A model generated the notes under the pieces. It saw only the letters and a list, made by a program, of their open reading frames with translations, had not been told where the DNA came from and did not search any database. This document shows, one piece after another, positions 33,759 to 64,000 of a stretch of 64,000 bases of DNA. The stretch lies in the UHGV virus genome UHGV-1962423; one strand, given 5' to 3'. A program made the translations under genes and the position numbers. This DNA comes from a virus. Position 1 is the first letter of the stretch. Every line of letters begins with the position of its first letter.

Positions 33759-33795
33759 ACCCCTACCTTCGGGTAGGGGGTTATTTAATTTTTTC
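33759..33795 (+). terminator. rho-independent terminator
   Basis: cccctacc-ttcg-ggtagggg followed by T-rich tract. Confidence 0.75.
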
Positions 33796-33835
33796 TCAGA
33801 TATATATTACCTTAGTGAGATTACACAGTAATCTC
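33795..33835 (+). promoter_or_regulatory. conserved promoter-like box CTCAGATATATATTACCTTAGTGAGA plus hairpin
   Basis: Same box as at 6918, 53683 and 58071; hairpin gagattac-acag-gtaatctc; about 50 nt upstream of ATG 33870. Confidence 0.6.
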
Positions 33836-44123: not shown

Positions 44124-44687
44124 GTGGCCACATCTTACGTACCTGATTTGAGTCTGACCTCAGCAGAGCTAGTGGTCGCTTTAATCAATCATGATAACGG
44201 GTTACAGCTTACGCTAAACGAAATCCGTATTAGCGGAACCGTAACAAACCCATCACCAACAACTTCGCGTCGTAACACCATCACCGAAATCAGTAAAATC
44301 AGAAAACCGGATGGTGCGTCTGTTGTGGTCTACTACGACAGACTTGACGCCGATGAGGTATTAACGTCTGAACCTATTTTGATTTCGTTAGACGGTACCG
44401 AAGCGAATATCCGTGACGTTCTGAGTGTTGTAAATGAACACTGCGGTACGAACTTACAGCCTGAAGACTTACGCGTTTCTGATATTACTTCAGGTAACGA
44501 TCCTATTGCCGTTAACGTTGCCGACGATTCACCTGCGTGGATGAATGCGTTTATGGTGACGTTATTTGATAAAACTGAGCGTGCGTTAGCGAACGAAGAA
44601 GATGAAATCTTCTGCATCGGTGACGATAGCGTTCTTACCTTTGAGGTTCCAGATGACGACTCAGCTGAAGAAAACCCGACTACATGA
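44124..44687 (+). CDS. small protein paired with downstream tail fibre, module A (187 aa)
   Basis: GTG start with GGAGGG RBS; clear paralog of 50418..50930 (PDLSLTS...V.L.NHD..LQL...NE, shared C-terminal CGIGDDSV.LTF); both sit directly upstream of a receptor-binding gene. Confidence 0.7.
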   Translation: MATSYVPDLSLTSAELVVALINHDNGLQLTLNEIRISGTVTNPSPTTSRRNTITEISKIRKPDGASVVVYYDRLDADEVLTSEPILISLDGTEANIRDVLSVVNEHCGTNLQPEDLRVSDITSGNDPIAVNVADDSPAWMNAFMVTLFDKTERALANEEDEIFCIGDDSVLTFEVPDDDSAEENPTT

Positions 44688-44892
44688 ACTTGATGATTTT
44701 TACCGGTAATGGAGGACAAAGCAAACTTTTATCAAGACTTAGCAAACCAAAATCATGAAAACGCGAAATTGAACATCGCTTTCACGTTAGAAGATGATGT
44801 ATTAAAACCAGGGCAATAGTAACCCGCTTATAAAAAATTGGGGGGTAAACTACTCTCCTGATCTTTTAGCTCCCGATAGAGAATTAAATATC

Positions 44893-47800
44893 ATGGCTAA
44901 AGCGGTAAAGAAAATTCGTTTACACGATTTACGTCCATACACCGGTGATATCGGTGAAGGCGTTTTACTTTTCTCCAAGGATGAGAAAGATTATAAGTTA
45001 CCAGTCCGTGAGGTTATTGCAGATATTGACACCGTACGTAATGCGGTGGCTGATGCACAAACAGCAGCAGCACAATCACAAGAAGCTGCAACTCAGGCTA
45101 CGCAAGCAAAAGTTTTAGCAGAAGCAGCAAAACAACAAACTGACACAGTTGCGGCAACGGTTGCACAACAAGCGCAAACCGTAACCGAAAAAGCAACAGA
45201 AGTCAGTACAAAACATACCGAAGTGTTAGCCGCGAAAACGGCGGTAGACGCTCAGGCTGTGTCCATTAATGAGAAAGCACAAGCGGTAGCGACAAGTGAG
45301 GCAAACGTCACACAAGCAGAAACTACCGTTACGAAGAAAGCAGAAACTGTTGCCACACAAGCCGGGCGGGTCGAACAGTCACTTACGGCAGTTAACGAAG
45401 CTGTTGCGTCGGTAGAGTCGTCGAAAGCTGCCGTAGAAGCTAAAGCAACACAAGTTACTTCAGACAAAGAAACCGCAGAGAATGCGGCAACTCGTTCTGA
45501 GGCAGCCGCTAAGCGTGCGGAAGAAATCGTTGCTCAAGGTACTGTTGATGCAACAACGACCAGTAAAGGTGTCGTTAAACTTAATAATACCTTAACCAGT
45601 GACTCTGTTACTGAAGCGGCTACACCGTCAACGGTTAAGCAGTTAAATGATGAATTGCAGTTAAAAGCAAACCGTCACAACCCAACTTTTACCGGTGTGG
45701 TAAAAGCACCGACTCCTGCTTCGGATTCTAACGACACGAGCGTCTCAACGACTGCATGGGTACGGCAAGCGATTGCTGAATTAGTGGACTCTTCACCCGA
45801 GACGTTAGATACGTTATCAGAAATTGCAGCCGCGTTAGGAAACGATCCTAACTTTGCGACAACGATAACGAACCAACTAGCGGGTAAACAGCCGTTAAGT
45901 CCGTTACTGACAGCGATTGCCGCAGTCACCACCGCTGCAAACAAACTCCCTTACTTTACCGGTAGTAATCAGGTAGGGTTAGCGGATTTCACCTCGACTG
46001 CTCGCGAATTATTAGCGAAAGGGTCGACGGCCGATATCATCAGCTTCCTGGGGTTGAAAACCACCGTTGATAAAGCTGCGGGCGCTATGCAACGTAGTTC
46101 TAACGGTGCCGATATTCCCGATAAAGCCACCTTCGCGAAGAACATCGGGTTGTCAGCAGAGACGTACCTGAAGTTTAATGGGGAGATGCCAGTAGATGCA
46201 GACATCAACACCTTCGGCCCGGTTGAAGCGTTTATGGGCGTTTGGTCTAAAGCCACGTCTACGAACGCAACAGTTGCAAAGAATTTTCCAGAAGAAAACG
46301 CAGTTGGTTGTTTAGAAGTTTTCAAAGCGGGTAACTACAGCGGAAGTCAACGTTTTACTGTACGTAACGGTAACATCTATACACGTCATCTTACTGCTGC
46401 ATGGAATGGGACAAACGGTCCTTGGTCAGAATGGCGTAATGTTGCTGGTTCCGCCAGAACGTTGAACGAACAAAATAATCTGAATGACTTGGGTGGTGAG
46501 GCCGCACTAGGTGTTTGGAGAAACAGTTCGAGTACATTAGCAACAACCGCGCTGAATTATCCTGAAGAAGGCTCTTTTGCCCAGGGCGTATTAGAAGTTC
46601 TCAAAGGTGGCAACTATAGTTACACACAACGCTACACTACCCGCAGAGGCAATGTATACGTTCGTTGTCTACAAGCCACGTGGGACGCTTCAAACCCGCA
46701 ATGGGAAGAATGGCGCTGTGTTGGTCATCAATCTGTCAGCACATATTTCGAAGGCGATCTCGACACGTTAACTTCGCCTAACCGTTATAGCATTACTGAT
46801 AAAGCGACAAACGTTCCTTTAATCGACGGTACTAAAATTATCGGTATCTTGGACGTCAGTCGTCGTTTTGATAACATTAGTGTCGAACAAAAATTCACCT
46901 CGTTTGGTTCTGGGAGCAAAACTACAGGGCGTATTTTCACACGTGTATTCTCCGGTCAATCAAACGGTAAATGGAGTGAGTGGCGAGAGGTTTTCACCTC
47001 GTATTCACTTCCGTTAGTTTTAGGTATCGGTGGGGTTGCAGCTAAGGTTGACCCGTTAGACTGGCAAACCTACGACTTCGTTCCTGGACAGATGTTAACG
47101 ACGCCGTTGAACACCATGAAAAACATTCCTGCAGGAATGGATTGGGGTACTATTGACGGTAACTTAGTTAACATCCTTGTAGGGCCGTCTGACGACACCG
47201 GTACTGGTCGGAGTATGCTGGTTTGGCGTAGCACAGTGTCTGTTGCTAACTATCGCTTCTTTGCGGTACGTATCGCTGGTGAGAAGGGTAGTCGTACGAT
47301 TACGCCGCGTCAGATGCCTGTGTTGAACGCAGCGCACACCTGGTCAGAGAAACAAACGTTCTCTAAAGGTTTAGCGGGTGAATTAACCGGTAATGCTTCT
47401 TCAGCAACGAAACTTCAAACAGCCCGTTTAATCGGCGGCGTAAGTTTCGACGGCACCAAGGACATTGCACTCCCTGGCGTTAACGCACAAGGTACGCAGA
47501 ACACCACTGGGAATGCGGCTACCGCAACCAAATTACAAACGGCTAGAAATATCAACGGTGTGAAATTCGATGGCTCTGGAGACATCAATATCAACACCTT
47601 AGTAGGTCGTGGACGTGTCACTGCTCTGGCTGGATCAAACAAAGGTACACCTGGTATCCAGATGTACGAGGTTTACAATAACGGTTATCCGACCGCGTAT
47701 GGTAATTTACTGCATTTAGGTGGTGCTACTGCCGTAGGTGAAGGTGAACTACTGATCGGTTGGTCTGGTACCAGTGGCGCACACGCACCTGTTTATATCC

Positions 47801-49209
47801 GTAGTCGTCGAGACACTACAGATGCGCCGTGGTCAGAATGGGCGCAAGTTTATACTGCACGAGACAGCATTCCGGGTGTCAACACCACAGGTAATCAGGA
47901 TACGACCGGAAACGCAGCTACCGCTACAAAACTTAAAACCACACGTAAAATAGGCGGGGTTAATTTTGACGGAACGGGTGATATTAACCTACCAGGTGTA
48001 AACCAGCAGGGCAACCAGAACACAACAGGTAACGCTGCGACAGCGACTAAACTCCAGACTGCCCGAAATATTGGTGGTGTGGCTTTCGATGGTACTAAAG
48101 ACATCAGTTTACCTGGGGTAAACCAAACAGGGAATCAGTCAACTACGGGGAACGCTGCTACTGCAACGAAGTTGCAGACAGCAAGAAGTATCAACAACGT
48201 ACCATTCGATGGTTCGAAAGATATTACTCTAACGCCAAGTAATATCGGTGCGGCTGCCTCCTCAATGACTTGGTTAAATACCGGGGATAATGGTGCAGCG
48301 CTTAGTACAGATTCTTTTATTACTTTGTTGCAAAATAACGGGGCTTTTAATTCCAGAACTTGGATAGCCCGATGCTCTTGGGCGTATGCTCAAAATGGCG
48401 TGATTCCAGATAGTGAAACAAAGTGCGGTACTATTCCACTTGCAGGCTCAGTTATTGAAGTTGTAAGTTTTGGGATGACCAACTACACCATTCGTATCAC
48501 AACCCCTACGACGACATCGGTTAGCGGAGCAAAAACCAACTCTGAGTTTATTTATTGCTATAATGGTAAAGATTATTCTCCAGGTTGGCGACGGCAGTAT
48601 AACACTGTTAATAAACCGTCTGCTAGTGACGTTGGCGCTCTACCAACTGGTGGCGGTACTGTCAGTGGCGATTTGACGGTTAATGGTAAACTGGTTACGA
48701 AAAATGCCGATTTTCGAATTGCTTACGGTAGTTACGGTTTCATTTTACGTAACGATGGCAATAGCACCTATTTCTTAGTAACAGCATCTGGTCAAGCTGC
48801 AACGGGTTCCTGGAATAACTTACGACCGATGTATTTTAGCAACTCTACCGGTCAAGTAACCTTCGGGCACAACGTTACTGGTAACGGGAACGGTTCGTTT
48901 AACGACGTACAGATTCGTTCTGACCGTCGTAACAAACGTAATCTGGTGAAACTGGATAATGCATTAGACCGTTTAGAACTCCTTACCGGGTATCTGTACG
49001 AAGTTCAACATCCTGACGATGGATGGAATACTTCGGTAGGCTTAATTGCCCAGGATGCATTAGTTGCGTTACCTGAATTGGTTACTGAAGACGATGACGC
49101 TATTTCTGGTGAAAAACGTTTACGTTTGAACTATAATGGTGTTATTGCGTTGTTGGTAGAGGGCATTAAAGACCTTCGTCGTGAGCTTAAGGAACTCAAG
49201 GGGAAATAA
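44893..49209 (+). CDS. long tail fibre protein with C-terminal intramolecular chaperone domain (1438 aa)
   Basis: N-terminal anchor shared with 50934 gene; Ala/Thr/Gln-rich coiled-coil; tandem TGNAATATKLQTAR.IGGV.FDGTKDI.LPGVN repeats like T4 gp12/gp34/gp37 fibre repeats; C-terminus SDRRNKRNLVKLDNALDRLELLTGYLYEV...GLIAQDALVALPELV matches the self-cleaving chaperone of endosialidase/L-shaped fibre proteins. Confidence 0.85.
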   Translation: MAKAVKKIRLHDLRPYTGDIGEGVLLFSKDEKDYKLPVREVIADIDTVRNAVADAQTAAAQSQEAATQATQAKVLAEAAKQQTDTVAATVAQQAQTVTEKATEVSTKHTEVLAAKTAVDAQAVSINEKAQAVATSEANVTQAETTVTKKAETVATQAGRVEQSLTAVNEAVASVESSKAAVEAKATQVTSDKETAENAATRSEAAAKRAEEIVAQGTVDATTTSKGVVKLNNTLTSDSVTEAATPSTVKQLNDELQLKANRHNPTFTGVVKAPTPASDSNDTSVSTTAWVRQAIAELVDSSPETLDTLSEIAAALGNDPNFATTITNQLAGKQPLSPLLTAIAAVTTAANKLPYFTGSNQVGLADFTSTARELLAKGSTADIISFLGLKTTVDKAAGAMQRSSNGADIPDKATFAKNIGLSAETYLKFNGEMPVDADINTFGPVEAFMGVWSKATSTNATVAKNFPEENAVGCLEVFKAGNYSGSQRFTVRNGNIYTRHLTAAWNGTNGPWSEWRNVAGSARTLNEQNNLNDLGGEAALGVWRNSSSTLATTALNYPEEGSFAQGVLEVLKGGNYSYTQRYTTRRGNVYVRCLQATWDASNPQWEEWRCVGHQSVSTYFEGDLDTLTSPNRYSITDKATNVPLIDGTKIIGILDVSRRFDNISVEQKFTSFGSGSKTTGRIFTRVFSGQSNGKWSEWREVFTSYSLPLVLGIGGVAAKVDPLDWQTYDFVPGQMLTTPLNTMKNIPAGMDWGTIDGNLVNILVGPSDDTGTGRSMLVWRSTVSVANYRFFAVRIAGEKGSRTITPRQMPVLNAAHTWSEKQTFSKGLAGELTGNASSATKLQTARLIGGVSFDGTKDIALPGVNAQGTQNTTGNAATATKLQTARNINGVKFDGSGDININTLVGRGRVTALAGSNKGTPGIQMYEVYNNGYPTAYGNLLHLGGATAVGEGELLIGWSGTSGAHAPVYIRSRRDTTDAPWSEWAQVYTARDSIPGVNTTGNQDTTGNAATATKLKTTRKIGGVNFDGTGDINLPGVNQQGNQNTTGNAATATKLQTARNIGGVAFDGTKDISLPGVNQTGNQSTTGNAATATKLQTARSINNVPFDGSKDITLTPSNIGAAASSMTWLNTGDNGAALSTDSFITLLQNNGAFNSRTWIARCSWAYAQNGVIPDSETKCGTIPLAGSVIEVVSFGMTNYTIRITTPTTTSVSGAKTNSEFIYCYNGKDYSPGWRRQYNTVNKPSASDVGALPTGGGTVSGDLTVNGKLVTKNADFRIAYGSYGFILRNDGNSTYFLVTASGQAATGSWNNLRPMYFSNSTGQVTFGHNVTGNGNGSFNDVQIRSDRRNKRNLVKLDNALDRLELLTGYLYEVQHPDDGWNTSVGLIAQDALVALPELVTEDDDAISGEKRLRLNYNGVIALLVEGIKDLRRELKELKGK
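47385..48240 (+). repeat. tandem in-frame coding repeats of the fibre motif
   Basis: At least five copies of the ~25-50 aa unit; nucleotide copies differ at synonymous positions. Confidence 0.7.
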
Positions 49210-49212
49210 AGG

Positions 49213-49755
49213 ATGGCAGTTGTTGAAGTTCCAGGTTATATCGGTTCTTCTGCAAAGGAAGTTACTGGCGAAGAGATGATGTCTGAAGCGATGACCGAAC
49301 TCGGCGTTGTCGTACCAGGGATGATGTCTGAAATGGCAGGTCTGTCAATGGGTTGCTATGTAACGTTTGAGGAGTGGACTACCGTTGAAGATGGCCTTGA
49401 TGTTCGATGGATCGGTGCGTCTACTTCCGAGTGGACAGACGGCTACGGCAAACCGGTCGTTAAAGGAAAAATATCCGGGGCGAAGATGTTTGGTTTGAAT
49501 GTCGAAGCGGAGCTGATCGGAATGCACTATAAAAAGCATCCGCGATTCCCTTGGTCAGTCGAACTAAAATGTCGCTGCGAAAAAGGTAGCAATTTCAGTT
49601 ATACGTTAGACGGTGTAAGCGGTTCTGTATCGAGTGATGGTACCGGTACAACCGGAATGCAAATTCGTACATTCAAATTTAACAATTTCAGTGCAGCATT
49701 TAAGGAAAAGATAGAGCAAGTTGGTGTCAAGATGCCAACATCACGTAAATATTAA
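49213..49755 (+). CDS. hypothetical protein downstream of tail fibre, paralog 1 (180 aa)
   Basis: MAVVEVPGYIGSSAKEVTGEEMMSE...MGC; paralogous N-terminus to 49812 gene (MAV....G..GSSAK.ETGE..MS.A...LG...P.MMS.M.G.SMGC). Confidence 0.7.
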   Translation: MAVVEVPGYIGSSAKEVTGEEMMSEAMTELGVVVPGMMSEMAGLSMGCYVTFEEWTTVEDGLDVRWIGASTSEWTDGYGKPVVKGKISGAKMFGLNVEAELIGMHYKKHPRFPWSVELKCRCEKGSNFSYTLDGVSGSVSSDGTGTTGMQIRTFKFNNFSAAFKEKIEQVGVKMPTSRKY

Positions 49756-49799
49756 AAGAGTAGCGTAGGGGTGACCTCCCCCCTACGCGAATCTTAACA

Positions 49800-49809
49800 G
49801 GGGGGGGGG
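49800..49809. repeat. G10 homopolymer tract immediately upstream of start codon 49812
   Basis: Ten consecutive G directly read in sequence, 2 nt before the ATG; preceded by hairpin gcgtagggg...cccctacgc at 49763-49788. Confidence 0.9.
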
Positions 49810-49811
49810 TA

Positions 49812-50315
49812 ATGGCGGTTAACTCGGGTTGGGTCGGTTCTTCGGCTAAGAGCGAAACGGGCGAACAGTGGATGAGCGCTGCGGGTGCCAAATTGGGATT
49901 GGGTAAACCTTTTATGATGAGTCAAATGGTGGGACGATCTATGGGCTGTAAAATTTCAACTGCTGCATATAGTGATTCTTTAGGTAAGAAATGGGGTGCT
50001 GTGGGATCAAGTTGGCCATTAACTCAGAAAAATCAGGGAACCATTCAAAACGCGGGTAACTGCGGGGTGGGAACTTTAGTAGGTATAGAGTTACAATTAA
50101 CGACGGTAGTTGCCAACGCAACGCCTACTCTAGCGGTCTATTTACAAGGCGGCAGGGCCTCTAACATCACTGCAAATCTAGGCGGTAACACTTGTGCGCT
50201 GACCTATCAGCAGGTTATTAATGGCCAACATTATTACTGGACCAATAACATTAGTGCCGCGTTCCAAAACGTGATGAAATCGACCGGTACACTAAGAGAT
50301 TTCAAAATTAGTTAA
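49812..50315 (+). CDS. hypothetical protein downstream of tail fibre, paralog 2 (167 aa)
   Basis: Paralog of 49213 gene; start codon directly after the G10 tract. Confidence 0.65.
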   Translation: MAVNSGWVGSSAKSETGEQWMSAAGAKLGLGKPFMMSQMVGRSMGCKISTAAYSDSLGKKWGAVGSSWPLTQKNQGTIQNAGNCGVGTLVGIELQLTTVVANATPTLAVYLQGGRASNITANLGGNTCALTYQQVINGQHYYWTNNISAAFQNVMKSTGTLRDFKIS

Positions 50316-50417: not shown

Positions 50418-50930
50418 GTGGAACAATTCACGCCAGATTTGTCGTTAACTTCACTTAACATGGTTATTTCACTGGTTAACCATGACCTCCAACTTGACTT
50501 GCAAGAGAATGAGGTCGAAGTCAGTGACGTAAAGACCAGTGACGAAATGGAACGTGACACCACTGCTGTTGTAAAGATAAAACGTTCTGGTAACAGAACG
50601 TTACAAATCTACTACAACCGTTTAACTGCAGAGCGGTGGTTAAACCGACAACCTGTACTTGTAAAAGTAACAGGCGAAGGGTTTAATGCGCACGATCTAA
50701 TCGAATCCATCAACACCGTTTGTGGTGCTAACTTACAAACCGACGATTTAACCGACCAGTCGTTCACGGTGGGTAAAGACGCGGTAATATTTAGCATCGC
50801 TCCGAGTTCCCTCGGCTACAAAGGTCAGTTCTCCGTGGTGGTTTTCGGTCCAGATGAAACACCGTGTGGTATCGGTGACGATTCTGTCGTGCTAACGTTT
50901 GACAATAAAATCTTAACCTTTGGAGAGTAA
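50418..50930 (+). CDS. small protein paired with downstream receptor-binding protein, module B (170 aa)
   Basis: GTG start with AGGAGG RBS; paralog of 44124..44687. Confidence 0.7.
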   Translation: MEQFTPDLSLTSLNMVISLVNHDLQLDLQENEVEVSDVKTSDEMERDTTAVVKIKRSGNRTLQIYYNRLTAERWLNRQPVLVKVTGEGFNAHDLIESINTVCGANLQTDDLTDQSFTVGKDAVIFSIAPSSLGYKGQFSVVVFGPDETPCGIGDDSVVLTFDNKILTFGE

Positions 50931-50933
50931 TAG

Positions 50934-53066
50934 ATGAGTCAGCCAATTGGAAAGAAGCGTATTCATGAGCTGGAAACATTTGAAGGTGAATTAGCAGGAG
51001 TCGTTCTGCTGATGTCCAAAGACGACAAAGAATATAAACTTGACGCATCTCGTTTACAAAACGATAAGCTGTATCTAGCTTGCGGTACACCTTTTCCTAA
51101 ACTAGTATTCCAAAACGATAAAACACTTTACAATATTAATCCGTACAGTGACTACGACACTTATGAAGTTTCTGCAAATAAAGGTCGGGTATCTAAAGTT
51201 ACTCGTGCCACATTTAGCGTGATGGCTGGGTCTTTATCGGTTGGCGAGAAAATACAACTTACAGTTACGCGCAATGGCGTACCATTTCAATTTGAAGTTA
51301 CCGTATCGGGACCGCGTATCACTACTCCCACTTGGACACTTCCAGTTAATGGCGGTAAATTGAGCGTAACGCCAACCTTTGAAGTAACTGACTATCAAGC
51401 CTATCCATATACCAACACCGGTAATCAACAGACCGCTGCCAGTTGGGAAATTTCCACTAGTGAAGATTTCTCAACTACAGTTTTCCAATCACTGAACGAC
51501 ACCGTCAACAAAACAACCATCAGTATCCCAGAAGGTAAGTTAGAACCAGGTCAAACTTACTACGCACGTGTTCGCTTCCATAACGCAGTAACCGAAAGTG
51601 ATTGGTCCGTTGTTCAATTCTCAGTCGGCGAAGCATTTATTCAGCGTCCTGCACTGATCGAACCCACCGTAGACATGGTGTTAAGCGCATCGAATATTAC
51701 ACTTAAAACTGATGTTTTTAAATGGGTCGGTGACGAACCTGCGGAGACCCACGTATCGACTGACTGGCAGGTTACTTACGGTAGCAACGATTTTGACGAA
51801 ATGAATAATCTCGTTAACCAATTAGAAGATGCGATTAACCTGACGTCGCTTAAATTACCGTCTGATCGGGTTTACGTTAATAACAGTTATCGTGCACGCG
51901 TGCGTTTTCGTGGTGAGAGAAGCGTCAGTGATTGGTCTGAACCTTTAACGTTCCGTGTAAGTCGCGGGAACGTACCAACAAGTGAATTCCAGTCAATTTC
52001 TGCTTCTGGATTTACAGGTAATTCAATCGGTGCTGAGTTGGCATGTACTGACGACGGTTTGCTGTTTGCTGCTACTGGCGTTGCACAGAAAGCGAAATTC
52101 TTACATATCTTTAAGAAAGACTTCCCGTCTTACAACAAAGTTGCCTCTTTAACAGCTGCTACTGAGGTTGACGCAGACAGAGATGGTCGCTGTCCGGTCA
52201 GTATGTCAGCCGACGGTAAGATTATTGTTGTCGGTGTTAGCGCATCTAAAGCTAACGAAGACCACGGCGAAGTTATCGTTTACCGTAACCCAGATAACGC
52301 TGAGTGGAGTACAATCAACGGAATAACTTTAGCGGGATTACCCACAGAAGGGTTCCATGGCCTTGCAGTAAAACTGTCAAAAGACGGCAATCGTTTGATT
52401 GTGGGTAACGGTACGAAAGTGCTGTCTATGTATTCCAATACCGATCAATTTGCTACACGTACGGCTGTGTCGCCGACACTAAGTGCCGAAGACGCCACTT
52501 GTGGTGGTATTGGTAGCATTGCAATGTCTGAAGACGGTAACGGTTTAGTGCTTGGCGAAACTAACGGAACGAAATTCCACGTACTGGCTTGGGAATCGGA
52601 TAGTTGGGTGACTAAGGCATCTATTACACCAAAAGACTTGACTGAGAAAGCAACGATTAAAGTCGCTGCTTCTTCTGACTTGTCTACGATTCTTGTTTCT
52701 GTAGTTGAGACACACAAATACTACGTTTACAAGAAAACCGGTGATAGTTGGTCTCTGTTCCAAACCTTGGATTATACCGAACTGGATTACTCCATTACTT
52801 CTACCCGTTACCCGACGGGAGACATTAATGTTGCGCCTTCCGGAAGCTGGTTAATTTTCGGTATGGTGGGTTCGTTGGGTTCTATTTTCGAATTTCGTAA
52901 TAGTACCTACCAACGACAAAATAGCATTTACGGCAGTAGTCTTAGCGATCCTGAGAATTACCACTTCTATACGTCACAAGCCATCAGTGCACAAAACGAT
53001 TTGTTCGTCGGTGCTGATGTTAAAGAAAGTGCTTCGTACTTCCCACAAATCAAAGTTTACATGTAA
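50934..53066 (+). CDS. second receptor-binding protein (tail fibre/spike) with shared N-terminal anchor (710 aa)
   Basis: N-terminus KKRIHELETFEGELAGVVLLMSKDDKEYKL parallels KKIRLHDLRPYTGDIGEGVLLFSKDEKDYKL of the 1438-aa fibre; central Ig/FN3-like stretches; C-terminal repeated ..DG..IVVG.. units suggestive of a beta-propeller (inference). Confidence 0.6.
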   Translation: MSQPIGKKRIHELETFEGELAGVVLLMSKDDKEYKLDASRLQNDKLYLACGTPFPKLVFQNDKTLYNINPYSDYDTYEVSANKGRVSKVTRATFSVMAGSLSVGEKIQLTVTRNGVPFQFEVTVSGPRITTPTWTLPVNGGKLSVTPTFEVTDYQAYPYTNTGNQQTAASWEISTSEDFSTTVFQSLNDTVNKTTISIPEGKLEPGQTYYARVRFHNAVTESDWSVVQFSVGEAFIQRPALIEPTVDMVLSASNITLKTDVFKWVGDEPAETHVSTDWQVTYGSNDFDEMNNLVNQLEDAINLTSLKLPSDRVYVNNSYRARVRFRGERSVSDWSEPLTFRVSRGNVPTSEFQSISASGFTGNSIGAELACTDDGLLFAATGVAQKAKFLHIFKKDFPSYNKVASLTAATEVDADRDGRCPVSMSADGKIIVVGVSASKANEDHGEVIVYRNPDNAEWSTINGITLAGLPTEGFHGLAVKLSKDGNRLIVGNGTKVLSMYSNTDQFATRTAVSPTLSAEDATCGGIGSIAMSEDGNGLVLGETNGTKFHVLAWESDSWVTKASITPKDLTEKATIKVAASSDLSTILVSVVETHKYYVYKKTGDSWSLFQTLDYTELDYSITSTRYPTGDINVAPSGSWLIFGMVGSLGSIFEFRNSTYQRQNSIYGSSLSDPENYHFYTSQAISAQNDLFVGADVKESASYFPQIKVYM

Positions 53067-53075
53067 GGAAACGCG

Positions 53076-53636
53076 ATGAAATATGCTTATTTAAAAGACG
53101 GTAATGTGATCGACTGGAATGTTACCGAAGACATGATTGCTTTGCGTGGCCACACTGTAGATATTTATACGCCTGTAGTAGAATCTGCTAAACCGGTTGT
53201 TAACCCTGATTGTTATATCGTGTTCGAAACAACACCAAAACTGGTAAAAGGCAAGCTGGTTCAACAGTGGGTGACTGAAGTGCTGCCTAAAGAAACGGTA
53301 GTACGTAACCAGAAGGCACGTTTAGCGGAAATTCGTTATGCGAAAGAAACTGCCGGGATTACGTTTAAAGACCAAACTATTCCTACGACACGTGATGTAC
53401 GTTATCAGTTAATTCAGTCTAAACACGTTGATTCTACGCAACCTATTAACTGGAAGCTAGGCGATACGTGGCTAAGTCTTACTCAGGAAGACATTGATGC
53501 GCTGCTGGTTGCAATCGCAACTTATGTTGAGAAATGCTACGCGGCAGAACGCACAGTCTCCGAGAAAATCACTAAGGTGAAAGCACCTGAAAAACTGGAT
53601 GTAGAAACCTTATTTAACGACGCTTTCGCAGCGTAA
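53076..53636 (+). CDS. hypothetical protein, possible fibre assembly or accessory factor (186 aa)
   Basis: Immediately downstream of the second receptor-binding gene; role inferred from position only. Confidence 0.6.
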   Translation: MKYAYLKDGNVIDWNVTEDMIALRGHTVDIYTPVVESAKPVVNPDCYIVFETTPKLVKGKLVQQWVTEVLPKETVVRNQKARLAEIRYAKETAGITFKDQTIPTTRDVRYQLIQSKHVDSTQPINWKLGDTWLSLTQEDIDALLVAIATYVEKCYAAERTVSEKITKVKAPEKLDVETLFNDAFAA

Positions 53637-61774: not shown

Positions 61775-62623
61775 ATGTCTCTTACGTCAAAACAGAAACT
61801 GCTAAAACTCATCAACACTGAAAACAATATTAGTCCACCGTTGACTTTCAGTGATGTTGATATCGGAGAACCTACTGGTACTGGGGTTGATACCCAGGTG
61901 GTTCTGACCTCTAAACTCAAAGGCGATGAGTCTACTACTTTAACAGTGACTTACCACCGTCGTAATTTACCTGACTACTTAACCGGTGAGTTGGTTTTCG
62001 GTAACGACAGTGTGGTAACCGCATCAGATTTGCTTAATGCGATCAACGCAAAATACAACCTAAATATTTTACCCTCGGATATCGTTGACGCAAAAGTTGA
62101 AGGTGAAACCCATCAGCTTACCGCTAACGAGAAATCTTACGAGTGGTGCGGTGTAGTAACACTTACGCTGCGTGATCCTATTGACCTGACTGAACTGTTA
62201 CCAGTTACTCAATTAGAGAATCTGGTAGAGTATCCGTCCACTAAGAAAGGTAACGCTGCGGTTTATTCTCACCCGATCGATTTCACCGCAGAAAAAGATT
62301 ACCTTGACCCGATTACTATCAACGACACCGTAGACTTGGTCGAGTTAGCCGCTAAACTGGATGGCGTCGTTGACGAGAAATGGGTAAGTGTGCCTAAGAA
62401 CGCGACTAACAACCTGTACGGTGCGAAGGTTATTTACGATGGCCCAACCGCAGGTTACGAAGGCGCAAATACGAAGTTCACTCGTGTGTTGGTGCTGACG
62501 CTCAGCCCGCTGTGTTCTAACCTGACAGGTAATCTGTTAATCCACTTTAACGGTACCGATCGTCCGAAGTCGAAGATTGAATTAGCACAGACTAATCCGG
62601 TCTTACCGGGATTCTTAGATTAA
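61775..62623 (+). CDS. hypothetical protein (282 aa)
   Basis: Long ORF; paralogous to the following truncated gene. Confidence 0.75.
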   Translation: MSLTSKQKLLKLINTENNISPPLTFSDVDIGEPTGTGVDTQVVLTSKLKGDESTTLTVTYHRRNLPDYLTGELVFGNDSVVTASDLLNAINAKYNLNILPSDIVDAKVEGETHQLTANEKSYEWCGVVTLTLRDPIDLTELLPVTQLENLVEYPSTKKGNAAVYSHPIDFTAEKDYLDPITINDTVDLVELAAKLDGVVDEKWVSVPKNATNNLYGAKVIYDGPTAGYEGANTKFTRVLVLTLSPLCSNLTGNLLIHFNGTDRPKSKIELAQTNPVLPGFLD

Positions 62624-62636
62624 GAGGATTACAGTA

Positions 62637-63161
62637 ATGACCAATCAAGAAACTATCTTCGACCTTATTAAAAAGGCTAACCCAGACGCTGAGTTCGACA
62701 CCACCAAAGTCACACTGGGTGACCCGGTCGTAACCACCGGTACGTACAATACCGAAATCACAGTTGCGTCAATTAAGAATCTCGGTTATACTAACGAACA
62801 AACGTTCCAGTATAACCGGATCGACGCAGGTTTGTATTTCCTGAACGTATTACCGAAACTGTTGGTGGAATCGGCAACAACGACCGCTGACTTACTGCCT
62901 GTCATTAACGAGCAGTACAGCCTAACCCTTACAGAAGACGATGTATGGGTAGAGCAGGTTGGTGAGTTACCGTTAGACGGAAGCGCAATCGAACACGGTA
63001 TTTTCTTCCGTCCTGAGTGTCTGACCTGGGTTGGCGGTTTTACAGTGCGAGTTGCGCGTAAACCGGCTGGCGCTACGCCACCCGAGACATGGAGGAGCCC
63101 CAGACCGCCGAATCCTGGCGCACCATGCCCCAGAAGGCGGCCGAGTGGTGGAAAAAGGTAA
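62637..63161 (+). CDS. paralog of 61775 gene, disrupted at the composition junction near 63070
   Basis: First ~145 codons are phage-like and align to the upstream paralog; the remaining frame runs into high-GC DNA with implausible Pro/Arg-rich translation. Confidence 0.5.
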   Translation: MTNQETIFDLIKKANPDAEFDTTKVTLGDPVVTTGTYNTEITVASIKNLGYTNEQTFQYNRIDAGLYFLNVLPKLLVESATTTADLLPVINEQYSLTLTEDDVWVEQVGELPLDGSAIEHGIFFRPECLTWVGGFTVRVARKPAGATPPETWRSPRPPNPGAPCPRRRPSGGKR

Positions 63162-63229
63162 ACGCAGGTGAAATTGAGAACCCGTTTATTTTCGAGCACA
63201 GCAACGAGCCGGAGGACTACGAGTTTTAA
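63089..63229 (+). CDS. small hypothetical ORF in high-GC segment (46 aa)
   Basis: Not in track. ATG 63089 to TAA 63227-63229; followed by a 10-bp-stem hairpin (63241-63273). Weak evidence. Confidence 0.25.
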   Translation: MEEPQTAESWRTMPQKAAEWWKKVNAGEIENPFIFEHSNEPEDYEF

Positions 63230-63304
63230 TTCCAAAGCGCGGAAGAAGGGGCGGCCGGTACGTCCCTTCTTCCTGTGCATTGCTTATAAAGGAGTGTCAC
63301 AGCT

Positions 63305-64000
63305 ATGGCAAAGACCATCATCACCGCCGCGCTGACCGGCGCGGTCACCCCCGCGGGCTACAAGATCCCCGAGACGCCCCAGCAGATCGCCAACGAGGCT
63401 TACGACGCCTGGAAGCTGGGCGCCGCCGTGGTACACCTGCACATGCGGGCCGACGACGGCCTGGGTGCCATGGACAAGGAGAAATTCCGGGAGACCATCC
63501 GGCTTATCCGCAGCCACCAGGACTGTGATGTCATTATCAACTGCACCTCCTCCGGCGCTTCTGCCGAGCATCCCGCCACGGATGAGGAGCGGATGGCCCA
63601 TCACCGGGAGCTGGAGGGCATCGAGATGGGTTCCTATGATGCCGGTACCTTCAACTGGATGCCCGGCGGCGTGTTCGTCAACTCCCCCCAGTTCCTCGAG
63701 AAGCTGGGCGATCTTTACATGGAGAAGGGCATCAAGCCGGAGCTGGAGATCTTTGACGCTGGCATGCTGGGCGTGGCCAGCTACTTCGTGAAGAAGGGCC
63801 ACCTGTCCACCCCCTGCCACTACCAGTTCTGCCTGGGCGTGCTGGGCGGCATGCCCGCCACGGTGGAGAACCTGCTCTACCTGGTGCAGCACATCCCCGC
63901 CGGTTCCACCTGGTCGGCCTTCGGCGTGGGCAAGGGCCCCCTGCCCATCCTGTTCGCCTCCCTGGCCCTGGGCGGCCACATCCGCGTGGGCATGGAGGAC
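63305..64000 (+). CDS. kce: 3-keto-5-aminohexanoate cleavage enzyme-like protein (BKACE/DUF849), 3'-truncated at window edge
   Basis: Not in track because no stop in window. AAAGGAG RBS then MAKTIITAALTGAVTP..., HLHMRADDG, GGHIRVGMED; GC-rich third codon positions; frame open to the end of the window. Confidence 0.7.
   Translation, partial: MAKTIITAALTGAVTPAGYKIPETPQQIANEAYDAWKLGAAVVHLHMRADDGLGAMDKEKFRETIRLIRSHQDCDVIINCTSSGASAEHPATDEERMAHHRELEGIEMGSYDAGTFNWMPGGVFVNSPQFLEKLGDLYMEKGIKPELEIFDAGMLGVASYFVKKGHLSTPCHYQFCLGVLGGMPATVENLLYLVQHIPAGSTWSAFGVGKGPLPILFASLALGGHIRVGMED

What the first reader, a model, noticed from the sequence alone, without database searches (positions are those of the whole stretch)
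50934..53066. Second receptor-binding protein may combine Ig/FN3-like domains with a beta-propeller
After the shared anchor, the protein has stretches resembling Ig/FN3 modules (YARVRFHNAVTESDWSVVQFSV; YRARVRFRGERSVSDWSEPLTFRVS). It then carries repeated ..DG.(I/L)(I/V)VG.. units (SMSADGKIIVVGV, LSKDGNRLIVGNG, AMSEDGNGLVLGE) reminiscent of FG-GAP or propeller blades. A propeller tip would be an uncommon receptor-binding fold for this kind of fibre.
Basis: inference. Interest (0 to 1): 0.5.

Follow-up and report, generated by a model that had tools for sequence, protein, structure and literature searches.

The report
Jumbo-phage fibre with FG-GAP propeller head
This gene from an uncultured giant (phiKZ-like) bacteriophage encodes a tail-fibre-type protein with two fibronectin-like spacer domains and a seven-bladed "FG-GAP" propeller at its tip, a head not yet described on phage fibres although other propeller heads are known.

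Summary

The first 36 residues are an attachment tag. The neighbouring 1438-aa long fibre carries it, and so do SPN3US gp143 and Asesino gp140. In every case the tagged gene follows a DUF7941 gene, and DUF7941 is the chimallivirus peripheral-baseplate adaptor family. A DUF4376 gene, a tail-fibre chaperone family, follows directly. This three-gene cassette is conserved in all relatives I examined.

Most likely this is a second host-recognition fibre whose distal propeller binds a surface ligand. That function is inferred, not shown. "Uncommon" is only partly right: phiKZ gp131 already ends in a seven-bladed propeller, but that protein shows no detectable sequence relationship to this one. I rate this a new variant of a known kind, of moderate interest.

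The parts
50934..53066 (+). Whole gene: 710-aa fibre protein (anchor, small beta module, 2 FN3-like repeats, 7-bladed FG-GAP_2 propeller)
   Evidence: ORF. There are 18 full-length orthologs at 68-100% identity in metagenomes, some on contigs of about 226 kb. Domain evidence is given in the rows below.
50934..51041 (+). N-terminal anchor/docking tag, residues 1-36 (KKRIHEL...G...VLLxSKDxKEYKL)
   Evidence: 44% identical to the N-terminus of the 1438-aa fibre. Also conserved at the N-termini of SPN3US gp143 and Asesino gp140. Low pLDDT as a monomer.
51096..51314 (+). Small beta module, residues about 55-127 (YxxYDTYEV...TVTRNGVPFxFEVTV)
   Evidence: All-beta with block pLDDT mostly 63-85. The same module precedes the FN3 repeats in P0020, P0021 and P0023.
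51318..51623 (+). FN3/Ig-like repeat 1, residues 129-230
   Evidence: Pfam Ig_Rha78A_N E=3e-6. Repeat HMM E=7.6e-37. Beta-sandwich in the model.
51639..51956 (+). FN3/Ig-like repeat 2, residues 236-341
   Evidence: Repeat HMM E=3e-33. Matches repeat 1 at E=1e-9.
52017..53063 (+). Seven-bladed FG-GAP_2-type beta-propeller, residues about 362-710. Approximate blade boundaries: 362-412, 413-469, 470-517, 518-568, 569-617, 618-670, 671-710.
50418..50930 (+). DUF7941 protein (170 aa), putative adaptor for this fibre
   Evidence: Pfam PF25613 E=1.4e-13. Paralog of 44124-44687 (33% identity, E=1e-31). Separated from the fibre gene by TAA TAG ATG. Adjacency is conserved in L006-L009, SPN3US and Asesino.
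53076..53636 (+). DUF4376 protein (186 aa), putative cognate fibre chaperone
   Evidence: Pfam PF14301 E=2.4e-12 and phrog_10508 'tail fiber protein'. DUF4376 marks the tail-fibre chaperones of Alteromonas phages V22 and A5 (PMC10579305). The same position is conserved in the relatives and after the distant homolog P0021.
44124..50315 (+). Paralogous first cassette: DUF7941 (44124-44687), 1438-aa long fibre with the same anchor (44893-49209), two gp38-like adhesins (49213-49755, 49812-50315)
   Evidence: Pfam and PHROG hits. Anchor identity.

Best explanation
The gene encodes a second, accessory host-recognition fibre of an uncultured phiKZ/SPN3US-related (chimallivirus-type) jumbo phage. The 36-residue N-terminal tag would attach the protein to the peripheral baseplate network, probably through the DUF7941 protein encoded just upstream. 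A small beta module and two FN3-like domains would act as a spacer stalk. The C-terminal seven-bladed FG-GAP_2 propeller would be the distal head that binds a bacterial surface ligand, most plausibly a glycan or an outer-membrane protein. The downstream DUF4376 protein would be its folding chaperone or cap.

Shown here: the domain architecture, the propeller fold and its FG-GAP_2 affiliation, the shared anchor, and the conserved three-gene cassette. Inferred: virion location, the DUF7941 interaction, the chaperone role, the ligand, and the oligomeric state.
For: Architecture. FN3 repeats. Propeller.

Tail context. The neighbours are a T4-type long fibre (Gp34_trimer, Peptidase_S74), gp38-like adhesins, DUF7941 proteins with PHROG 'virion structural protein' hits, and a DUF4376 protein.

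Anchor. It is shared with the long fibre and with SPN3US gp143 and Asesino gp140, both annotated 'tail fiber protein'. Each of these genes follows a DUF7941 gene directly.

Cassette. DUF7941, the 709/710-aa protein and DUF4376 are conserved together in all relatives examined.

Modularity. Distant homologs keep the same beta module and FN3 stalk but carry other heads: P0021 and P0020 have Lcl_C, P0023 has canonical FG-GAP_2. P0021 lies at the end of a myophage baseplate module and is followed by a DUF4376 gene. P0023 lies beside virion and tail-fibre genes.

FG-GAP_2 elsewhere in tail settings. One such protein sits downstream of the tape measure gene in LR797314, and another is fused to a Peptidase_S74 chaperone domain in P0205.

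Literature. [quoted passage not shown] DUF4376 proteins are tail-fibre chaperones (PMC10579305, PMC7289586). The propeller of phiKZ gp131 is positioned for host attachment (PMC13250141).
Against: There is no experimental or proteomic evidence that this protein is in the virion.

The propeller is the most conserved part of the protein (mean pairwise identity 0.85, against 0.78-0.81 for the other domains). Variation among orthologs is not enriched on the putative ligand-binding top face (p=0.40). This is unlike many receptor-binding tips.

No trimerisation element was detected, so it may not be a classical trimeric fibre.

Pfam's own FG-GAP_2 model does not hit the protein directly. The family-only profile has no sequence hit in the PDB.

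The anchor shows no sequence similarity to the DUF7941 docking segment, so the proposed attachment rests on gene adjacency alone.

Blades 1, 6 and 7 are degenerate, and blade 7 is modelled at low confidence.
Confidence: 0.6

Rival explanations
1. The propeller is an enzyme (polysaccharide depolymerase, lyase or hydrolase) that clears capsule, O-antigen or biofilm matrix, rather than a passive binding head. The stalk and anchor would be as in the main model.
For: Propellers on phage fibres are often catalytic: K1F and phi92 endosialidases (PMC4901313) and n-bladed propeller depolymerases (titles). The phiKZ atlas notes that the gp131 propeller fold is 'frequently associated with enzymatic activity' (PMC13250141). 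Goslar DUF7941 proteins carry glycoside hydrolase domains (bioRxiv 10.64898/2026.04.21.720040). High conservation of the top-face loops of blades 2-5 (entropy 0.14-0.18 bits) would fit an active site.
Confidence: 0.15
2. It is a virion-attached structural or environmental-adhesion protein that does not determine host specificity. Examples would be a component of the DUF7941 'fibre cloud' mediating protein-protein contacts, or a Hoc-like Ig-domain adhesin for mucus or particles.
For: The head is uniformly well conserved and no face is hypervariable. WD40/integrin-type propellers are typically protein-interaction platforms. Strings of Ig/FN3 domains are typical of decoration proteins (my own knowledge). 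No trimerisation domain was found.
Against: The gene has its own DUF4376 chaperone, as studied tail fibres do (PMC10579305). Relatives keep the same stalk but swap heads, which is the usual signature of host-range modules. It shares its anchor with a bona fide long fibre.
Confidence: 0.15
3. It is not a virion component at all, for example a secreted or injected FG-GAP protein acting on the host surface or interior, as the non-structural context of the Vibrio phage nt-1 FG-GAP protein might suggest.
For: The nt-1 'FG-GAP repeat protein' ORF127 lies among hypothetical genes next to a nicotinate phosphoribosyltransferase gene, not among tail genes. Most FG-GAP_2 proteins are cellular secreted proteins, many with T9SS sorting domains.
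Against: The anchor is shared with fibres. The gene is flanked by DUF7941 and DUF4376 in every relative. The stalk family sits in baseplate and fibre modules.
Confidence: 0.05

Closest known systems
phiKZ gp131 (PDB 4GBF), baseplate fibre protein with a C-terminal seven-bladed propeller
   Same: Both come from phiKZ-related jumbo phages. Window gene order (major head, polymerase and so on) matches phiKZ gp120-gp129. Both are peripheral-baseplate or fibre proteins ending in a seven-bladed beta-propeller proposed to contact the host (PMC4901313, PMC13250141).
   Different: No sequence relationship is detectable (BLASTP E>5; hhalign probability 0.9%). gp131 shows only a weak RCC1-like signal, not FG-GAP_2. 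gp131 uses a gp131-type N-terminal domain and a six-helix bundle for attachment. The window protein instead uses a 36-residue tag and has FN3 spacers.
FG-GAP_2 (PF14312) repeat proteins of bacteria, giant viruses and a few phages
   Same: The approximately 52-residue blade motif is the same (G-x-S-V-S-x-S-x-DG-x-x-L-x-VG ... G-x-V-x-V-Y ... W), the alignment is in register, and the fold is a seven-bladed propeller. Viral examples include 'FG-GAP repeat' proteins of uncultured Caudovirales and Megaviridae and LR797314 UFOVP1367_22 in a tail module.
   Different: The window protein is too divergent for the Pfam model to detect directly. The FG dipeptide is mostly lost (DG, HG, IG). Three blades are degenerate. 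The fusion to an FN3 stalk and a chimallivirus fibre anchor is not described in the papers searched.
Integrin alpha-subunit beta-propeller (classical FG-GAP, PF01839)
   Different: The family-only profile has no direct sequence hit. The A-B hairpins read S-x-DG rather than the Ca-binding D-x-D-x-DG (sequence inspection, listing). There is no beta-subunit partner.
Staphylococcus phage phi11 Gp45 and coliphage K1F endosialidase
   Same: Receptor-binding or host-surface proteins of tailed phages in which each chain carries its own beta-propeller (PMC4901313).
   Different: These have five- and six-bladed propellers from unrelated families. They are embedded in demonstrably trimeric proteins with helical or beta-helical stems, and the K1F propeller is catalytic.
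Goslar DUF7941 host-recognition proteins (gp86, gp92, gp161)
   Same: Chimallivirus peripheral-baseplate system in which DUF7941 modules are linked to carbohydrate-binding, hydrolase or LRR heads (bioRxiv 10.64898/2026.04.21.720040).
   Different: Here the head protein has no DUF7941 domain of its own. It is a separate gene placed just after a short DUF7941 gene, and its head is an FG-GAP_2 propeller.
Alteromonas phage V22/A5 tail fibre plus DUF4376 chaperone
   Same: A fibre gene followed by a DUF4376 gene (PMC10579305, PMC7289586).
   Different: The fibre folds differ, and the chaperone dependence of the window protein is untested.

Membership tests
FG-GAP_2 repeat family (Pfam PF14312) | Direct match to the Pfam PF14312 model at its curated cut-off | tested here: not met
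   hmmscan of the 710-aa protein at E<=1 lists Beta-prop_EML_2 and Beta-prop_Vps41 but not PF14312.
FG-GAP_2 repeat family (Pfam PF14312) | Significant homology to bona fide PF14312 proteins | tested here: met
   The family-only profile A3 finds 2170 proteins at E<=1e-3 and 161 at E<=1e-10. Nine of ten hits examined carry PF14312, with E from 1e-13 to 5e-110. The C-terminal domain alone matches the P0023 repeats at E=6e-8 in several registers.
FG-GAP_2 repeat family (Pfam PF14312) | Tandem ~50-57-residue blades with the S-x-DG / VG / G-x-V-x-V-Y / W motif | tested here: met
   A blade HMM built from canonical proteins gives whole-protein E=2.2e-21 and finds blades at 422-468, 476-500, 528-571 and 578-616. 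The motif residues align in register. Blades 1, 6 and 7 are recognisable only by position and in the model.
Seven-bladed beta-propeller fold | Seven four-stranded sheets arranged in a closed ring | tested here: met
Integrin-type FG-GAP (PF01839) | Direct sequence similarity to integrin alpha, and Ca-binding D-x-D-x-DG hairpins | tested here: not met
   The family-only profile has no PDB hit at E<=1. The hairpins read TDDGL, SADGK, SKDGN, SEDGN, SSDLS, APSGS. Only fold-level similarity was found.
FN3/Ig-like (E-set) domains | Match to an Ig/FN3 family model, and a beta-sandwich fold | tested here: met
   PF25788 scores 27.9 bits against a cut-off of 27.4. There are two internal repeats. The model gives beta-sandwiches with block pLDDT mostly 75-90. 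The repeat profile matches only FN3 domains in the PDB, weakly (E 0.006-0.09). No fold search was run on these domains.
phiKZ gp131-like fibre proteins | gp131-type N-terminal attachment domain and a homologous C-terminal propeller | tested here: not met
   BLASTP E>5 over the full length. hhalign probability 0.9%. Only the fold class (seven blades) is shared.
Chimallivirus DUF7941 host-recognition proteins | DUF7941 module within the polypeptide | tested here: not met
   The 710-aa protein has no PF25613 hit. DUF7941 is instead encoded by the separate upstream gene 50418-50930, a conserved adjacency.
Tail fibre with cognate DUF4376 chaperone | DUF4376 gene immediately downstream of the fibre gene | tested here: met
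   53076-53636 matches PF14301 at E=2.4e-12. The position is conserved in L006-L009 and after P0021.
Tail fibre with cognate DUF4376 chaperone | Fibre folding or activity depends on the chaperone | not testable with these tools
   Needs co-expression experiments.
Classical trimeric phage fibre | Trimerisation element (coiled coil, triple beta-helix, gp34/gp37-type or S74 domain) | tested here: not met
   None was detected in the 710-aa protein, whereas the neighbouring 1438-aa fibre has Phage_fiber_2, Gp34_trimer and Peptidase_S74. The oligomeric state was not modelled.

The most novel reading that the evidence does not exclude
The 36-residue N-terminal peptide is a universal plug that lets SPN3US-like jumbo phages mount interchangeable fibres on DUF7941 adaptors of the peripheral baseplate. 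One such fibre uses an FG-GAP_2 propeller as its receptor-binding head. That would be the first functional (ligand-binding) assignment for the very large, uncharacterised PF14312 family, and a propeller head that arose independently of phiKZ gp131.
Probability: 0.35. Interest if true: 0.6.

Novelty: new variant of a known kind. Interest (0 to 1): 0.4.

Why it matters
Host recognition by phiKZ-like jumbo phages is only now being resolved structurally. This locus shows a clean, conserved three-gene module (DUF7941 adaptor, fibre, DUF4376 chaperone), duplicated around two very different fibres that share one N-terminal tag. That gives a concrete, testable rule for how such phages mount alternative host-recognition proteins.

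It also places an FG-GAP_2 propeller at the tip of a phage fibre. The same FN3 stalk carries other heads elsewhere. The FG-GAP_2 family has thousands of members and, as far as I know, no assigned function. This gives an experimental handle on what the family binds and adds one more head type for fibre engineering. If the head is only structural, the finding is an ordinary domain annotation.

Tried and rejected
1. Near-identical or protein-level relatives in GenBank phages: none for the gene or the protein. The C-terminal domain alone gives nothing better than E=2.
2. Direct PDB sequence hits: the single sequence gives only a chance match (E=0.38). The family-only profile gives none.
3. Homology to phiKZ gp131: rejected.
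4. The fibre anchor mimics the DUF7941 linker or tail that docks head-to-tail: an anchor HMM built from 22 sequences finds nothing in 11 DUF7941 proteins (best E about 0.9, negative scores). Rejected at the sequence level; a structural test is still needed.
5. A hypervariable receptor-binding face: entropy in top-face loops (0.30 bits) versus bottom-face loops (0.35 bits) and strands (0.31 bits) shows no difference (p=0.40).
6. Fusion or readthrough between DUF7941 and the fibre, which are in the same frame: two consecutive stops, TAA TAG, precede the ATG, so rejected.
7. NCBIfam gave no names for any of the four cassette proteins.
8. The full-length AlphaFold run left most of the propeller at low confidence (mean pLDDT 63.7). 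Only the domain run with a curated alignment was usable.
9. Literature searches for FG-GAP with phage or tail fibre found only giant-virus papers.

Full report
**Observation.** The window holds an ATG-to-stop ORF of 710 aa at exactly 50934-53066 on the + strand. The pattern S.DG..[ILV]3G occurs three times. In 20,000 shuffles of the protein the chance of even one occurrence was 0.00015. The 'shared anchor' is real: residues 1-36 are 44% identical to the start of the 1438-aa fibre at 44893-49209 (E=1e-9).

**Source.** No GenBank phage matches the gene at the DNA or protein level. Eighteen full-length orthologs at 68-100% identity exist in metagenome assemblies, several on contigs of 174-227 kb. 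The upstream DUF7941 protein finds homologs at 29-36% identity in the SPN3US, Asesino and related enterobacterial jumbo phages. The window's gene order (major head protein, polymerase, virion proteins) matches phiKZ gp120-gp129. The source is therefore an uncultured phiKZ/SPN3US-related (chimallivirus-type) jumbo phage.

**Stalk.** Pfam Ig_Rha78A_N matches residues 161-231 just above its curated cut-off (27.9 vs 27.4 bits, E=3e-6), with weaker PhoD_N and fn3 hits. Residues 129-230 and 236-341 are two copies of one repeat (E=1e-9 to each other). An iterated repeat HMM scores them at E=7.6e-37 and 3e-33 and finds the same repeat 1-7 times in the distant homologs P0019-P0024. The repeat consensus is THxSTDWQ(I/V)ATDxxF...SLNDTxNLTS...YYxRVRxxG...SxWS. 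A profile of it matches only FN3 domains in the PDB (cytokine receptor common beta chain, IFNAR1, Tie2, titin). These matches are weak (E 0.006-0.09) and fall on the YxxRVR...SxWS strands. AlphaFold models residues 60-345 as beta-sandwiches with block pLDDT mostly 75-90. A further small beta module (residues about 55-127) precedes the repeats and is also shared with P0020, P0021 and P0023.

**Head.** P0023 (628 aa) has the same beta module, one FN3 repeat and a canonical FG-GAP_2 region (Pfam E=3.7e-32). The window's C-terminal domain alone aligns to those repeats in several registers (best E=6e-8). A profile built only from this family's residues 345-710 (A3) was scored against 1.84 billion representatives. 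It found 2170 proteins at E<=1e-3 and 161 at E<=1e-10, most with many matched stretches. Nine of the ten top hits I examined carry PF14312 FG-GAP_2. A blade HMM built from canonical FG-GAP_2 proteins scores the window protein at E=2.2e-21 and places blades at 422, 476, 528 and 578, about 52 residues apart. Degenerate copies at about 368, 632 and 684 would complete seven blades, and MAFFT puts the motif residues in register with canonical proteins.

There are caveats. Pfam's own PF14312 model does not detect the protein. The family-only profile has no PDB sequence hit. The hairpins lack the integrin Ca-binding pattern. Blade 7 and the ring closure are low-confidence.

**Context.** The locus reads as follows:
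- DUF7941 (44124-44687)
- 1438-aa long fibre (Phage_fiber_2, Gp34_trimer, Peptidase_S74)
- two gp38-like adhesins
- DUF7941 (50418-50930)
- the 710-aa protein
- DUF4376 (53076-53636)

The two DUF7941 proteins are paralogs (33% identity, E=1e-31). The same DUF7941 / 709-710-aa protein / DUF4376 trio is present in every relative examined. In L006 the long-fibre cassette also ends with a DUF4376 gene. In SPN3US and Asesino a DUF7941 'virion structural protein' is followed directly by a short 'tail fiber protein' whose N-terminus carries the same anchor motif. Two stop codons (TAA TAG) separate the DUF7941 gene from the fibre gene.

**Literature.** A 2026 preprint on phage Goslar describes DUF7941 as a chimallivirus-specific family. 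Its members associate with the peripheral baseplate, oligomerise head-to-tail into filaments, and in some cases are fused to carbohydrate-binding, hydrolase or LRR domains (bioRxiv 10.64898/2026.04.21.720040). DUF4376 marks the tail-fibre chaperones of Alteromonas phages V22 and A5 (PMC10579305, PMC7289586). Propellers in phage receptor-binding proteins have precedents: PRD1 P2, phi11 Gp45 (five blades), K1F and phi92 endosialidases, and phiKZ gp131C, which is seven-bladed (PDB 4GBF; PMC4901313). The phiKZ virion atlas places gp131 in the twelve baseplate fibres and supports a role in attachment (PMC13250141). I found no paper describing an FG-GAP propeller on a phage fibre. One prasinovirus paper treats viral FG-GAP genes as rare (PMC11467894).

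**Relation to gp131.** None is detectable by sequence (BLASTP E>5; hhalign probability 0.9%). gp131 gives only a weak RCC1-like signal. On this evidence the two seven-bladed heads come from different repeat families, and they sit on different attachment systems.

**Mechanism (inferred).** The N-terminal tag docks the protein to the peripheral baseplate or DUF7941 network. The beta module and two FN3 domains space the head away from it. The propeller binds a host surface ligand, and the DUF4376 protein assists folding or caps the head.

The modular picture has support. The same stalk carries an Lcl_C head in P0021, which sits at the end of a myophage baseplate module and is followed by a DUF4376 gene. 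FG-GAP_2 propellers occur downstream of a tape-measure gene in LR797314 and fused to a Peptidase_S74 chaperone domain in P0205.

Several results argue against a classical specificity tip. The propeller is the most conserved domain (0.85 mean pairwise identity, against 0.78-0.81 for the others). Variation is not enriched on the top face (p=0.40). No trimerisation element is present. An enzymatic head or a structural or adhesive role therefore remain open. My idea that the anchor mimics the DUF7941 docking segment found no sequence support.

**Verdict.** The claim of rarity is only partly right. This is a new variant of a known kind: a jumbo-phage fibre with a propeller head, here of the FG-GAP_2 family on an FN3 stalk, in a DUF7941/DUF4376 cassette. 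Function is untested. Interest is moderate.

Noticed in passing
window 44124-44687, 50418-50930, 61775-62623, 62637-63161: The window encodes four DUF7941 proteins. The last two are a full-length 282-aa protein (E=1.4e-51) followed by a 174-aa protein (E=7.3e-28). This resembles the long-plus-short paralog pairs the Goslar preprint describes (Goslar gp22/gp23, phiKZ gp127/gp126). The other two are short forms, each placed just before a fibre gene.
   Followed up: partly
window 44640-44687 and 50880-50930; L004, L005, L006: All the fibre-adjacent DUF7941 proteins (window, L006, SPN3US gp144, Asesino gp139) end with a conserved tail, C/M-I-G/S-D-D/N-x-V-(V)-L-T-F/Y/I. The non-adjacent DUF7941 proteins lack it (listing). 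It could be the segment that contacts the fibre anchor.
   Followed up: no
window 44893-50315: The 1438-aa long fibre ends in a Peptidase_S74 intramolecular chaperone domain yet is followed by two tandem gp38-like adhesin genes (Gp38_N, E=4e-11 and 1e-20). In relative L006 the second adhesin is replaced by a 273-aa protein plus a DUF4376 gene. This is an unusual combination of two fibre-tip systems.
   Followed up: partly
orthologs P0006-P0008 vs window, residues about 500-600 (alignment A1): P0006-P0008 are only 73% identical overall, but they match the window's group almost residue for residue across blades 3-5, while the other 70%-identity orthologs differ there. This suggests recombination inside the propeller gene.
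   Followed up: no
window 62001-64000: GC content jumps to 0.543, against 0.38-0.48 elsewhere in the window. The stretch covers part of the DUF7941 pair and ORFs on the opposite strand.
   Followed up: no
window 33760-33825: A 66-bp stretch is 87% identical to unannotated DNA of Salmonella jumbo phages STsAS and SPAsTU. It is the only megablast hit of a 14-kb query. ARAGORN finds no tRNA anywhere in the window.
   Followed up: partly
L002 (Vibrio phage nt-1) 5764-6972: The annotated 'FG-GAP repeat protein' ORF127 of this T4-like phage lies among hypothetical genes next to a nicotinate phosphoribosyltransferase gene, not among tail genes. Phage FG-GAP proteins may therefore not all be fibre heads.
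   Followed up: no
P0019, P0022, P0024 (metagenomic proteins): The same FN3-like repeat (THxSTDWQ...YYxRVR...SxWS) occurs 2-7 times in proteins with other or unknown C-terminal regions. One of these is a 1092-aa protein on a 208-kb contig and another has a glycine-rich tail. The SxWS ending recalls the cytokine-receptor WSxWS motif, but only at weak E-values.
   Followed up: partly
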